From positions 34,279-98,278 of the IMG/VR virus record IMGVR_UViG_3300028128_000337: 64,000 nucleotides of DNA; one strand, 5' to 3'. Shown in pieces: positions 25,380-29,126 of the stretch. A model generated the notes under the pieces. That model searched no databases. It saw only the letters and a list, made by a program, of their open reading frames with translations, and was not told the DNA's origin. Positions within the stretch are counted from its first letter, which is position 1; each line of letters starts with the position of its first letter. Source of the stretch: a virus (lineage: Duplodnaviria; Caudoviricetes). The translations under genes and the position numbers were made by a program.

Positions 25380-25771
25380 CAATATTCGATTGTCTGAACG
25401 ACATCTTGTTCACCAAGCGTGGCAAGCTGTTACAGAATGTTGATGACGAGACCACGTTCAATCAATACATGATCAACAGATGGTGCAGCATGTACAGCCC
25501 GGGCATGGCACAACTTGTCAACAACACTGTCAACTGGCTATACGGTGCATTTGAGACCAAACAACAATACTATAAATTTGTATCCAGTGTGTTCCCTCGA
25601 GTGTCACGTAAACGAATACATTACATCAAGAAAATTAAACCAGAAGACACAGACAACGAGCTTGAAAATGTACATTTGATCGCTAAACGACTTGAACTCT
25701 CGCAACGAGAGATTAAATCTTATTATGAGTACAGCAGCAAACACGGCACAAGTTCAACATGCTCAGGCTAA
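25376..25771 (+). CDS. Clamp loader small subunit, T4 gp62-like
   Basis: IFD.LN.I..K, F..YMINR..S, QY.F....P......YIKK. Confidence 0.65.
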   Translation: MTIFDCLNDILFTKRGKLLQNVDDETTFNQYMINRWCSMYSPGMAQLVNNTVNWLYGAFETKQQYYKFVSSVFPRVSRKRIHYIKKIKPEDTDNELENVHLIAKRLELSQREIKSYYEYSSKHGTSSTCSG

Positions 25772-26156
25772 TCTGTCTGACAAAGTAAAGGGCACAATCC
25801 AACTTGATACATACACAGGTAGTGAGAATTTCAATCTGTTCGGTTACGAGTTGACACAAGTTCTAGATGACATTATTCTAGTCAAGTATGTCGACTGTAA
25901 TGATGATGGTACGGAAATATTAAAGAACGGTGTGTGGGTGCCTATCAATGTGAACACGTTCACTTGGAGAATAGGTCAAGTAATGTTGGCTGGACCTAAT
26001 TGCAAGCTGGTCAAAACTGGTGATTTTGTGACATTTCCTAATGACAAGGGTATAGCTGTTGGTAATCTTGAGATTGAGAAGGAAGGTAAAGTGAAAAACA
26101 GTTGTTTCTTGAATGAGGATCGTATATTTGGTGTATGTAAACCTAAGAGCGTGTGA
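25725..26156 (+). CDS. groES: GroES-like co-chaperonin
   Basis: VLDDIILV, G.V.LAGP...VKTGD.V.F, LNEDRIFGV. Confidence 0.7.
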   Translation: MSTAANTAQVQHAQANLSDKVKGTIQLDTYTGSENFNLFGYELTQVLDDIILVKYVDCNDDGTEILKNGVWVPINVNTFTWRIGQVMLAGPNCKLVKTGDFVTFPNDKGIAVGNLEIEKEGKVKNSCFLNEDRIFGVCKPKSV

Positions 26157-26539
26157 AAGTTGGCGCTAGCACGTTAAGTGTGTTGTTAGAAAACAACGTG
26201 CTAGAAGTAAAATTTAAAAGACGGATACCTGTGGCAGGCAAACCTTCCACCAGGAGAATGCTATGCACAAACAGCCCAGTGTTGTTGTTGAGCACCGCCG
26301 GGAGAGAGACACTACATTACACATCACCTAGTGGTCCACCCAAATACAACACCGCCAGCAAAAATGTAGTGATAGCCTGGGATATATTCAAACAGGATTA
26401 CCGAGCCATCAGTGTGGACAACCTCGAGGTGATAAGTCAAATGCCCGTGAGCGGAGATGGTACAGATTTTTGGGAATATTTCAACAACACAATATATCCC
26501 ATGACCCCTCAACAGAAGGAGGCTTTTTTCAATGTCTGA
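26153..26539 (+). CDS. WYL_2/DUF2693-like SH3-fold protein
   Basis: V.F.RR...R.MLCT...WDI....YR pattern. Confidence 0.55.
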   Translation: MKVGASTLSVLLENNVLEVKFKRRIPVAGKPSTRRMLCTNSPVLLLSTAGRETLHYTSPSGPPKYNTASKNVVIAWDIFKQDYRAISVDNLEVISQMPVSGDGTDFWEYFNNTIYPMTPQQKEAFFNV

Positions 26540-26885
26540 CACACCGTACAACACTCTAGAGTGTCTCAAAAAATTGTTACAGAAAGAAGTGGTATTTCTG
26601 CTTGGTCAAAAGAGTGTACGCAAGGGTAGATTGCTGCTTTACAACATACATGATTATCATGTGAAATTCATGATACACACAAATAAAAACATAAACAAAA
26701 CATACGAAGTACCATATCCATACAACGTCACACATAGTGACAATCACGTCAGTTTCTCGTACACAATCAAAGATTTTTGTAGGGACAACGCGAACAAGCA
26801 TGATGTAGTGATGTGTAAATATGGATCTTCAATCAATAAATTTTTCGACAAACGACTCACAATTTCAGTTATAGACCTGCAGTAG
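26532..26885 (+). CDS. Hypothetical protein
   Basis: 117-aa coupled ORF. Confidence 0.55.
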   Translation: MSDTPYNTLECLKKLLQKEVVFLLGQKSVRKGRLLLYNIHDYHVKFMIHTNKNINKTYEVPYPYNVTHSDNHVSFSYTIKDFCRDNANKHDVVMCKYGSSINKFFDKRLTISVIDLQ

Positions 26886-26898
26886 AATAAATAATTGT

Positions 26899-27480
26899 AT
26901 GGCTATAATAAAACCGGTATATACTAACATTCCGCAGATAGGTGCTGTGGAGTACACTCTAGGAGGCAAAGTTCCAGTAGATGCAGACACGGTCACAGAC
27001 GTCGGAGCGCGCTTCACTAACAAAAAATCAAACACCACCATAACGGTGAAGAGTTTGTACACGTTAGAAGAAGGTGACACCATCAGAATGAAGTCCTCAA
27101 GTGGTACAAGTTATGTATTGACCGCCTCCGCCGATGGTACCACCAGTGAGGATACCACGGCCCCGAAATATGAAATTGGCGCCACCAAGGCAACCACCGC
27201 CTCGAACATGAAAGATGCAATTGCAGCATTGACAAACTTCACTGCCACAGTCAGTGACACTGTGGTGTATGTAACTCAATCAACTGCCGGTGAGGCTGGT
27301 AACACTCGAGTTTACAACTCCAACAAGGCTTGTATCAGTACTGCAAGCTTCAAGGGTGGGGGATACGCGTATGATGAACATGACGAAGCCACTGAGGCGT
27401 TAACGAAGGGTTATGCCAAGACTACTGCAGATGCCAAGATGTTAGAACACGCGCGCAAACGCAATCTTGGATTGATCTAA
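26899..27480 (+). CDS. Thr/Ala-rich late (probably virion) protein
   Basis: ATAAATA at 26887; TITV..GDTI..VTQSTAGEAGNT..FKGG module typical of virion proteins. Confidence 0.6.
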   Translation: MAIIKPVYTNIPQIGAVEYTLGGKVPVDADTVTDVGARFTNKKSNTTITVKSLYTLEEGDTIRMKSSSGTSYVLTASADGTTSEDTTAPKYEIGATKATTASNMKDAIAALTNFTATVSDTVVYVTQSTAGEAGNTRVYNSNKACISTASFKGGGYAYDEHDEATEALTKGYAKTTADAKMLEHARKRNLGLI

Positions 27481-27494
27481 CTTCGGATAAATTC

Positions 27495-27975
27495 AGACAC
27501 AAAAAACCCTCAAACTAGTGTCTCTCGATATAGGTATAGTGCTACCTACCGGCTAGAATTGATAATAAAGAACAATTGGATCATGTCGGTAATTTTCTCC
27601 GGATGATGTGGTACGCACACAATGCACCTATGAAACAACATAGATGCATTGAGTATGGTAATTATATCCGTATTGATATGTTTACGCAAAAGACGCACTC
27701 TTCGAGATATTAATTTTATGGAGAATCCTGACCTAGTAAACTCCGGTTACGAATAACCACTAATATATGCCGACATTTGTCGCAGTTCGGTGCAATGCAG
27801 ATCTTACTCTGCCGTTTTTCACCTGTCGTCTAACAGTTGTGTTTAATTTAGCTTTGTCCATTCTAGCAGTTCTCTCTGCCAAGTCGCAAACCATCATTGA
27901 GCCAACTACTACTCACGCTCGTGTACCGAAAACGCTGATGGGTATGCTGTAGCGTTGTTTCGCACTTGTGCACTA
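27495..27975 (-). ncRNA. Candidate large structured non-coding RNA (~480 nt)
   Basis: No sense ORF of 60 aa or more; at least 8 hairpins plus nested long-range helices; upstream TTGATT-N16-TATCAT on minus strand. Confidence 0.55.
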
Positions 27976-27980
27976 TATAT

Positions 27981-28008
27981 ATGATAGCGTATAAAAACTA
28001 GAAATCAA
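27981..28008 (-). promoter_or_regulatory. Sigma70-type promoter pointing into the non-coding interval
   Basis: TTGATT-N16-TATCAT; same TTGAWT -35 as the other promoters in the window. Confidence 0.55.
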
Positions 28009-28022
28009 GCATAAATATAAAT

Positions 28023-29126
28023 ATGAGGAGCAATCCATTTTATTTCGAGATAAAAGACGTGATGACACAGTTTGTTGCTGCGTTCAACAACATAATAATA
28101 AGCCGTCATGATAAATCTAAAAATGTAAGGTCTAAAGTACATGTTAGATATGTATATGCCCCTAAACAACGTGTGGTACATGACTTGACAAACAAAGCTC
28201 GACACTTAACCTTACCGGTGGTGGCTGTCAATATCACTGGAATCAATCGAGATTCTAGCCGTGTGTTCAACAAACTAGAAGGTGCATATTACACCGGTGA
28301 GGAACGACATAGGAGCTCACCCAAGTCTGACAAATCTAACAAAGCTGTACATATGCTACAACCAGTACCGATCAACATACAAGTCAGTATGAGCATGATG
28401 GCACGGTATCAAACAGATATAGAGCAGATTGTGAGCAATTTTGTACCGTATTGTGACCCTTATATTGTAATTTCATGGATGATGCCGGAAGGTTTCACAT
28501 ATTACGATCAAGAGATTCGAACAGAAGTAGAATGGTCTGGTGATATTAGCATGGATTATCCTGATACACTGACTGGTACAGATCCATATCGACTTAGTGC
28601 AGACACTACATTCACTATAAAAACATGGCTGTTCAAACAAGTGGAGACACCACAAGAGAATATATACAAAATTACAACCAACATATCACCGGTCGTCGAC
28701 CTCCCGGACATGTCACTAGTCTTACCGATGTATGATAATGTGACAGAGAGGTCATATGTTGAGGGTTTAGGACCACCGCTAACAGCAGCCCCGTATATCA
28801 CACATGTTGAAGATGATGGTCAGACTACCAACAAAGTGGTGCTTGGTTACAATCTGGGTGAAACAAGCAGTGTGTATCTGTCTTGTAACAACATCAACGC
28901 ATTGAGCGGTGAGCGTGTGCAGTTGTTTGACAAAACCGGTTTGAACACATTATATCCAGCTTTCACTGGTGTTAGTGTTGATTATGACATCACTAGTGAC
29001 AACACTATAGTAATTGATGATACAATTGTACCACCTGGTGTGATGTATGATATTGTGGTGGTGAGCGCTGGTGGTTATGATACAGCGGTAAACTCACCTC
29101 GACACAACCAAGATGTTATATCGTAA
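28023..29126 (+). CDS. 15: Tail terminator/sheath stabiliser, T4 gp15-like, with C-terminal Ig-like extension
   Basis: F...FNNI.I.R, V.Y.YAPK, LP.VA...I.RD..R, PVP.NI, D..QIV.N..PY. Confidence 0.8.
   Translation: MRSNPFYFEIKDVMTQFVAAFNNIIISRHDKSKNVRSKVHVRYVYAPKQRVVHDLTNKARHLTLPVVAVNITGINRDSSRVFNKLEGAYYTGEERHRSSPKSDKSNKAVHMLQPVPINIQVSMSMMARYQTDIEQIVSNFVPYCDPYIVISWMMPEGFTYYDQEIRTEVEWSGDISMDYPDTLTGTDPYRLSADTTFTIKTWLFKQVETPQENIYKITTNISPVVDLPDMSLVLPMYDNVTERSYVEGLGPPLTAAPYITHVEDDGQTTNKVVLGYNLGETSSVYLSCNNINALSGERVQLFDKTGLNTLYPAFTGVSVDYDITSDNTIVIDDTIVPPGVMYDIVVVSAGGYDTAVNSPRHNQDVIS

What the first reader, a model, noticed from the sequence alone, without database searches (positions are those of the whole stretch)
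27495..28008. Candidate novel ~480-nt structured ncRNA with its own promoter
Seen: the only large gap in a densely coding window. A minus-strand TTGATT-N16-TATCAT (28008-27981) points into it. Read on the minus strand it is tiled with helices: 27923-27965 (GUGCGAAACAACGCU/AGCGUUUUCGGUAC), 27864-27881 (UGGCAG/CUGCUA), 27823-27836 (CUGUU/GACAG), 27797-27812 (GCAGA/UCUGC), 27745-27758 (GGUUA-UUCG-UAACC), 27621-27650 (AAUGCAUCUAUG/CAUAGGUGCAUU), 27531-27548 (UAGGUA/UACCUA), 27495-27523 (AGACAC/GUGUCU). There are also nested long-range pairs AUGUCGG (27776-27770) / CCGACAU (27589-27583) and UUCUCC (27725-27720) / GGAGAA (27600-27595). Several imperfect pairs are G-U only on the minus strand, matching the promoter direction. 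I see no tRNA, tmRNA, RNase P or group I/II intron hallmarks. Inference: a large multi-domain phage RNA of unknown class.
Basis: partly seen in the sequence, partly recalled or inferred. Interest (0 to 1): 0.82.

Follow-up and report, generated by a model that had tools for sequence, protein, structure and literature searches.

The report
New knotted self-repeat phage RNA
The gene-free gap in this uncultured T4-like aquatic phage is the gene for a real, about 390-base, four-times-knotted non-coding RNA of a family found in no catalogue we searched; its tail carries the same roughly 35-letter stretch twice, changing in step between relatives, which suggests (not shown) that it pairs back onto its own DNA, perhaps to start genome copying.

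Summary
Real. The element is a ~388-nt minus-strand RNA gene (about 27974-27587, shorter than the 480 nt claimed) behind a positionally conserved sigma70-type promoter. I found 61 distinct homologues, all in uncultured T4-like aquatic phage contigs (55-88% identical). A 78-pair structure is 97.6% paired, with two-sided changes at 52 pairs (0/500 shuffles). It has four pseudoknots, three of them covarying. No Rfam, tRNA/tmRNA, GTDB or cultured-phage match, and the 45-codon ORF is not conserved. New feature: the 3' third holds a ~35-nt direct repeat whose two copies change together in each lineage (p<5e-5). One strand between them pairs equally with upstream or downstream partners, no third copy exists, and there is no terminator. 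Best reading (0.4, inferred): co-transcriptional strand exchange puts copy 1 on the DNA template of copy 2, giving a ColE1/T4-like R-loop primer. Rivals: twin protein sites or RNA oligomer, or a two-site ribozyme. Transcription is untested. The scan noted this family once before on other DNA (e1-5878749) and similar 'twin-box' RNAs in other T4-like phages.

The parts
27981..28008 (-). sigma70-type promoter (-35 at 28008-28003, -10 at 27986-27981); predicted start about 27974 (inferred)
   Evidence: the same -35/-10 pair sits at the same distance from the RNA in about 46 of 52 homologues (-35 TTGAYT in 42)
27587..27974 (-). the non-coding RNA, about 388 nt
   Evidence: conservation limits; 61 distinct homologues; 78 pairs, 97.6% paired, 52 with two-sided change; consensus fold -70.3 kcal/mol on minus vs -38.3 on plus
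27943..27974 (-). P1/P1a 5' hairpin with a T-loop-like loop (27962-27958)
   Evidence: helices 1-2; T-loop identity is inference from sequence
27891..27941 (-). P2 three-way junction: one arm ends in a GNRA-like pentaloop, the other has a 4-bp stem with a tRNA D-loop-like 8-nt loop (27910-27903)
   Evidence: helices 3-5; loop identities inferred
27863..27882 (-). P3 hairpin, nearly invariant
   Evidence: helix 6
27855..27857 (-). pseudoknot C, 5' strand; pairs with the loop of P9 (27640-27638)
   Evidence: helix 7 (A-U/G-C/U-A and C-G/U-A swaps)
27841..27854 (-). invariant A-rich junction; 27844-27841 pairs with 27741-27738 (pseudoknot D)
   Evidence: 100% paired but nearly invariant, so not proven by covariation
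27823..27836 (-). P4 hairpin; its loop (27831-27827) pairs with 27695-27691 (pseudoknot A)
   Evidence: 5-7 Watson-Crick pairs in 48 of 49 sequences, about 15 different complementary words
27767..27812 (-). P5 hairpin (27812-27797), invariant 27793-27789, pseudoknot B strand 27785-27783 (pairs with 27730-27728), P6 hairpin (27782-27771), and the 4-nt strand 27770-27767 that duplicates 27625-27622
   Evidence: helices 10-12; about 6 concerted changes in pseudoknot B and about 5 at the trio 27769/27647/27624 on the tree
27707..27766 (-). P7 multiloop with P7a (27758-27745) and P7b, whose large invariant loop carries the strands of pseudoknots B and D: the conserved core
   Evidence: helices 13-15; invariant columns
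27656..27690 (-). direct repeat, copy 1 (core at 27671-27667)
27620..27658 (-). exchange strand X (27658-27646) and the P9 hairpin (27651-27620)
   Evidence: X pairs with the start of copy 1 (p<5e-5) or of copy 2 (p=0.002), and with 27770-27767 or 27625-27622 (both 99% paired)
27587..27619 (-). direct repeat, copy 2 (core at 27602-27598); conservation ends with it
   Evidence: no terminator follows (3 of 52)
28010..28023 (+). T4-type late promoter box(es) of gp15, back to back with the RNA promoter
   Evidence: sequence; TAAATA on the opposite strand in 32 of 52 homologues
28023..29126 (+). gp15 tail sheath stabiliser, divergent neighbour (context only)
   Evidence: phrog_227, PF16724
26153..26885 (+). 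two small convergent neighbours: F2 (WYL-like fold) and F1 (Hfq/Sm-like fold); possible but not dedicated partners
   Evidence: Z 4.4 and 5.8, weak; present in relatives without the RNA

Best explanation
SHOWN by comparative evidence (about 0.95): a single-copy gene for a ~388-nt non-coding RNA, with a promoter of host sigma70 type, that folds into about 12 helices locked by four pseudoknots and ends in a lineage-specific ~35-nt direct repeat with an exchange strand X between the copies. INFERRED mechanism (0.4): the RNA acts in cis on its own DNA. While it is being made, X first pairs with upstream partners (the 4-nt strand at 27770-27767 and the start of copy 1). As polymerase transcribes copy 2, X swaps onto the new copy-2 RNA (forming P9) and the freed copy 1, held in place by the knotted core, swaps onto the template strand of copy 2. 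This near-isoenergetic branch migration leaves a persistent R-loop at the 3' end of the gene. Phage RNase H-type trimming would give a primer, and the displaced strand would load helicase. That makes it an early replication origin working like ColE1 RNA II and the R-loop origins of T4, later switched off by the UvsW-type helicase.
For: Structure. Each copy 1 is most like its own copy 2 in 15 of 18 lineages (permutation p<5e-5), about 79% identical over about 35 nt, with copy-specific differences at fixed positions that argue against simple gene conversion. No third copy or complement in the RNA or in the available genome sequence, so the only perfect partner found for copy 1 is the template strand of copy 2. 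Mismatches lean to the direction tolerated by RNA copy 1 on the DNA of copy 2 (30-33 vs 14-16; p=0.027 after composition control). X has two mutually exclusive, co-evolving partners. Promoter conserved but no terminator; conservation stops exactly at the end of copy 2. The genome has the T4-type exonuclease (RNase H-like), SSB, DnaB, primase and UvsW-like helicase. Precedents: PMC5043065 (ColE1) and PMC3016281 (T4 R-loop origins; oriE uses an early promoter).
Against: No transcript, R-loop or replication data at all. Cumulative GC and AT skew turn at about window 5.7 kb (the gene-strand switch), not here. The wobble bias is weak and many lineages are balanced. The invariant GGA core of the repeats and the large invariant knotted core are more than a primer obviously needs. 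A complete 217-kb relative has no such RNA. T4 oriF R-loops need no specific sequence (PMC3016281). The origin idea was prompted by earlier AI notes on other families, which are not independent evidence.
Confidence: 0.4

Rival explanations
1. A free, trans-acting ornate RNA of GOLLD/ROOL type. The two repeats are twin binding arms for one lineage-specific (dimeric) phage protein, or quasi-palindromic kissing or strand-swapping arms that build an RNA oligomer; some 'pseudoknots' would then be intermolecular.
For: Invariant GGA core in both copies; every variant of the 4-nt loop word can self-pair, including tandem A-G (inspection). Multi-pseudoknot architecture like ROOL, where a covarying kissing loop proved intermolecular (PMC12286853). 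Orientation-independent, own promoter (inverted in L122; extra genes inserted on either side in L243, L244). Hfq/Sm-like and WYL-like neighbours.
Against: Matching over about 35 nt at many lineage-specific positions is more than a protein site or a 4-bp kiss needs. Local hairpins around the cores covary only weakly (p about 0.05) and cross-pairing not at all. No terminator. F1 and F2 occur equally in phages without the RNA. It does not explain the duplicated 4-nt strand at 27770-27767.
Confidence: 0.3
2. A ribozyme or RNA-processing unit: the invariant four-pseudoknot core is an active site into which copy 1 and copy 2 dock in turn (as two splice or cleavage sites do), excising or circularising the ~67-72-nt segment between them.
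For: Invariant single-stranded residues cluster around pseudoknots B and D. Two alternative, co-evolving pairings of X and an invariant complementary pair 27793-27789/27628-27624 look like two conformations. Repeat spacing is narrow, 62-75 nt.
Against: No internal guide complementary to the lineage-specific repeat positions was found. No likeness to group I/II introns, RNase P or small ribozymes in Rfam. No host gene is interrupted.
Confidence: 0.15
3. A cis-regulator or antisense barrier for the flanking genes (5' leader, or antisense to the convergent F2-F1 operon or to gp15 promoter activity).
For: The 3' end abuts the F1 stop codon in many loci, and the promoter is back to back with the gp15 late promoter.
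Against: Neighbours on both sides vary freely, the unit is inverted in one phage, and no gene follows on its strand in most loci. The complexity far exceeds such roles.
Confidence: 0.06
4. A CsrA/RsmA sponge (TwoAYGGAY or CsrB-like) through its GGA loops.
For: Two GGA-containing loops; the window's copy 1 fits the AYGGAY word.
Against: Only two sites; most lineages have C, not A, two bases before GGA; one lineage has AGA in both copies; no Rfam match; no phage CsrA; a fixed host protein cannot explain lineage-specific concerted change.
Confidence: 0.03
5. A small protein gene (the 45-codon ORF) or a tmRNA-like tag.
For: An open frame exists in the window.
Against: Start codon absent in most homologues, stop position ranges from 2 to 53 codons after the anchor, 1-nt indels are common; ARAGORN finds nothing.
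Confidence: 0.01

Closest known systems
ColE1/pMB1 RNA II pre-primer (PMC5043065)
   Same: Long non-coding transcript from a host-polymerase promoter whose folding state would decide whether it forms a persistent hybrid with its own template at its 3' end. From my own knowledge, an upstream G-rich stretch of RNA II is thought to pair with a downstream template stretch, the same logic as copy 1 and copy 2.
   Different: No sequence or Rfam similarity; found in lytic T4-like phages, not plasmids; four pseudoknots; a ~35-nt lineage-specific repeat with an exchange strand instead of a short G stretch; no antisense RNA I equivalent found; origin function not shown.
T4 R-loop origins oriF/oriG and iteron-bearing oriE (PMC3016281)
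   Same: T4-like phage, promoter plus transcript at an intergenic site, replisome with RNase H-like, SSB and UvsW-like proteins; oriE uses an early promoter and has direct repeats.
   Different: T4 origins need about 100 bp and no folded RNA; here 388 nt of covarying structure are conserved, with two long repeats inside the transcript rather than 12-nt iterons.
GOLLD (RF02032) and ROOL (RF03087) ornate phage RNAs (PMC12286853)
   Same: Large, multi-pseudoknot, phage-encoded, own promoter, function unknown, no dedicated protein partner evident.
   Different: No Rfam match even at E up to 5-10; smaller (388 vs about 600-800 nt); no tRNA genes nearby; fixed single locus; co-evolving self-repeat; multimerisation untested.
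Polynucleobacter-1 motif (RF01718; PMC2864571) and the 'twin-box' RNAs noted earlier by this scan
   Same: According to unchecked scan notes: 350-490-nt knotted RNAs of T4-like aquatic phages with two boxes that change together.
   Different: No match to RF01718 at E up to 10; no adjacent GIY-YIG or GOS11034 gene on its strand; the repeat is about 35 nt rather than 6-7 nt. Any kinship is architectural only and not shown.

Membership tests
Any Rfam 15 family (incl. GOLLD, ROOL, OLE, raiA, HEARO, RNase P, group I/II, TwoAYGGAY) | covariance-model match at gathering score | tested here: not met
   0 hits in the window and in 20 homologous loci; nothing relevant at E up to 10 or 5
GOLLD/ROOL | large multi-pseudoknot covarying structure in phage DNA | tested here: met
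GOLLD/ROOL | frequent location near tRNA genes | tested here: not met
   no tRNA in the 98-kb record or in RNA-bearing loci
GOLLD/ROOL | RNA-only homo-oligomeric cage | not testable with these tools
   needs cryo-EM or mass photometry
tmRNA | tRNA-like domain and conserved tag frame | tested here: not met
   ARAGORN negative; no conserved frame
Polynucleobacter-1 motif | match to RF01718 | tested here: not met
   0 of 5 RNA-bearing records at E up to 10
ColE1-type RNA primer origin | promoter-driven non-coding transcript with no terminator before the origin | tested here: met
   promoter conserved; terminator-like site in only 3 of 52; sequence-level only
ColE1-type RNA primer origin | upstream RNA segment able to pair with the downstream template strand | tested here: inconclusive
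   co-evolving direct repeat and weak wobble bias fit but do not prove it
ColE1-type RNA primer origin | persistent RNA-DNA hybrid and priming of DNA synthesis | not testable with these tools
ColE1-type RNA primer origin | sequence homology to RNA II / antisense RNA I | tested here: not met
   no Rfam match
T4 R-loop origin | shift of nucleotide skew or transcription strand at the site (true of three T4 origins, not all) | tested here: not met
   skew minimum at about window 5.7 kb, not 27.8 kb
RT-template RNAs (retron, DRT, DGR) | linked reverse transcriptase gene | tested here: not met
   no PF00078 in 14 records incl. the own and a 147-kb RNA-bearing one; records are incomplete, but none is adjacent in any locus
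Guide RNAs of mobile nucleases or recombinases (omega, bridge, TIGR) | constant adjacent effector gene and variable guide matching foreign or many targets | tested here: not met
   neighbours vary and lie on the other strand; the repeat has no other copy
CsrB/RsmZ-type sponge | many ANGGA hairpin loops | tested here: not met
   two loops, mostly CNGGA, AGA in one lineage

The most novel reading that the evidence does not exclude
A new class of self-targeting phage RNA: a four-pseudoknot RNA that uses an internal copy of its own 3'-end sequence as a guide and, by protein-free strand exchange during transcription, locks onto its own DNA to open a replication origin (or another programmed R-loop site). 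It would be a folded-RNA initiator in lytic T4-like phages and a reprogrammable RNA-only DNA-opening device.
Probability: 0.35. Interest if true: 0.92.

Novelty: new variant of a known kind. Interest (0 to 1): 0.8.

Why it matters
Few large, highly knotted RNA classes are known in bacteria and phages, and most have no function. This one comes with an unusual, directly testable clue: a co-evolving self-repeat with an exchange strand. If it makes an R-loop on its own gene, it shows how large uncultured T4-like phages start replication, bears on the still-speculative trigger of persistent hybrids in ColE1 (PMC5043065), and offers an RNA-only way to open DNA at a chosen site. If it instead proves a ribozyme or an RNA assembly, it is still a new compact target for cryo-EM with 61 natural variants in hand.

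Tried and rejected
Single-sequence MFE z-scores and the promoter scan are uninformative. Rfam at two thresholds on the window and on homologues: none. Cultured phages: no DNA match, no F2 match. GTDB genomes: two pattern scans; the only hits (L211, L212, also L058) are chance, with L212 and L058 lying inside a sugar-kinase-like coding region. Relaxed viral patterns and a covariance model of the core found no more distant branch. Literature searches found no description; the supplement of the 10,000-candidate viral RNA screen (PMC10690425) is not held, so prior listing there cannot be excluded. Peptide or tag coding rejected. D-like loop pairing with the repeat tails: not supported (p 0.24 and 0.66). 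Repeat-to-repeat helix: not supported. RT and CsrA genes: absent. GC skew does not mark the site. F1 and F2 folds gave only weak Hfq/Sm-like and WYL-like matches. Host could not be identified. The DinG-like helicase found in the same slot in RNA-less relatives never co-occurs with the RNA in that slot, but the two labels are clade-bound (about 2 changes on the tree), so this is not evidence of functional replacement.

Full report
Setting. The window is part of a 98-kb, about 46% complete IMG/VR record of a T4-like phage with gp15, clamp loader, late sigma, UvsW-like helicase, UvsY, SSB, DnaB and primase. No cultured phage is close (gp15 at most about 31% identical) and the host is unknown. The gap 27481-28022 lies between a plus-strand ORF and gp15 and is the only large gap in the record.

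Observation. The motifs quoted are present, but on this sequence alone they are not beyond chance: folding z -0.28 and -1.48, promoter-like sites at the shuffled rate. Homologues decide the matter. Three loci found through gp15 (about 60% amino-acid identity) carry the gap at 84-88% nucleotide identity. Pattern scans of viral and metagenome contigs, followed by profile searches, gave 61 distinct near-full copies, 55-88% identical, from marine, estuarine and lake-type samples judging by record names. None was found in GTDB genomes or cultured phages. Conservation runs from about 27974 to 27587; the 3' 100 nt of the finding, with its last two hairpins, is not conserved.

Structure. On 49 sequences, a 78-pair model is 97.6% paired with two-sided changes at 52 pairs; 0 of 500 shuffles reach this, and slid controls give 33-39%. 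In my own tree-aware test the 12 strongest covarying column pairs are all Watson-Crick, E<0.05. The minus strand is favoured (consensus energy -70.3 vs -38.3; G-U 412 vs A-C 28), and a TTGAYT-N16/17-TAnnAT promoter sits at a fixed distance upstream in about 46 of 52. There are four pseudoknots: A (P4 loop with 27695-27691; about 15 different complementary words), B (27785-27783 with 27730-27728; about 6 concerted changes), C (27857-27855 with the P9 loop) and D (invariant, so supported only by complementarity). The 45-codon ORF and any tag frame are not conserved. Rfam, ARAGORN and the literature searches give nothing (22, 37, 75, 85, 123).

Context. The RNA is single-copy and nearly always sits between F1 (Hfq/Sm-like fold, weak) and gp15, yet unrelated genes are inserted on either side, and in one phage the whole unit is inverted. 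It is therefore an autonomous unit, not a leader. It occurs across many deep lineages of the F1+F2 tree. Other lineages have a DinG-like helicase or nothing in the slot, and a complete 217-kb relative lacks the RNA by BLAST and covariance model. No RT, CsrA, nuclease or tRNA gene accompanies it.

The unusual feature. The 3' third contains an imperfect ~35-nt direct repeat (27690-27656 and 27619-27587) around an invariant GA core, 62-75 nt apart. Lineages differ widely in this sequence, but within a lineage the two copies agree: own copy ranks first in 15 of 18 lineages, p<5e-5, about 79% identity. Differences between copies recur at fixed positions, which plain gene conversion would erase (inference). 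The strand between them (X, 27658-27646) has two exclusive sets of partners. Its 5' part pairs with the start of either copy. Its 3' part pairs with 27625-27622 or with the identical 4-mer at 27770-27767, and these three strands change together about five times on the tree, with a second three-way change in L027. No third copy or complement exists in the RNA or in the available genome sequence. No terminator follows.

Mechanism. The simplest partner that demands sequence identity of two copies at arbitrary positions is the template DNA strand of copy 2. Then [copy 1 with X, copy 2 with template] can exchange into [copy 2 with X, copy 1 with template] as transcription passes, leaving a locked R-loop at the gene's end. 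A weak bias of mismatches toward rG-dT and rU-dG in that direction fits (p=0.027 after control). ColE1 RNA II and T4 origins show that such hybrids prime replication (PMC5043065, PMC3016281). Every step from hybrid to priming is inferred; skew gives no support, and the origin idea was suggested to me by earlier, unchecked scan notes on other RNA families, after I had found the repeat myself. I put it at 0.4, against 0.3 for twin protein or oligomer arms on a free GOLLD/ROOL-like RNA (PMC12286853) and 0.15 for a two-site ribozyme.

Verdict. A real, uncatalogued family of large pseudoknotted phage RNAs with a striking self-repeat and strand-exchange design. It is not a member of any tested family; it may work like a ColE1-type primer. 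Expression and function are untested, and prior listing among unpublished or supplementary candidate sets cannot be excluded. Interest 0.8.

Noticed in passing
window 26532-26885 (F1): Predicted fold is Hfq/Sm-like (Z 5-6). It sits next to gp15 in the whole clade, and a PDB entry (9lu5) shows T4 neck proteins assembled with host Hfq, so F1 could be a phage-encoded Hfq-like neck factor.
   Followed up: partly
window 26153-26539 (F2): Stand-alone WYL-like domain (top fold hits all WYL proteins, Z about 4; weak PF10902), conserved in more than 545 viral contigs.
   Followed up: partly
L150:3730-5358 and related loci: A DinG/XPD-type helicase of about 545 aa fills the F1-gp15 slot in RNA-less freshwater-type relatives.
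   Followed up: partly
L122:3600-4000: The RNA gene with its promoter is inverted in this phage and reads toward gp15.
   Followed up: partly
L127, L130, L136, L137, L251: Close relatives (about 75% F2 identity) lack the whole RNA-gp15-next gene block at this position; gp15 was not found in their partial records, so the block may have moved.
   Followed up: partly
L145:2856-3251: A divergent copy without the usual promoter at the usual distance.
   Followed up: no
window 26899-27480: A 193-aa ORF whose shorter versions (72-92 aa) occur at the same place in relatives; the site beside the RNA's 3' end is a hot spot for variable genes, including glycosyltransferases.
   Followed up: no
window about 5700: Gene-strand switch coinciding with the minimum of cumulative GC and AT skew, an alternative origin candidate.
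   Followed up: no
window 25692-26156: 154-aa ORF that looks GroES/co-chaperonin-like by eye; no PHROG or clear Pfam hit.
   Followed up: no
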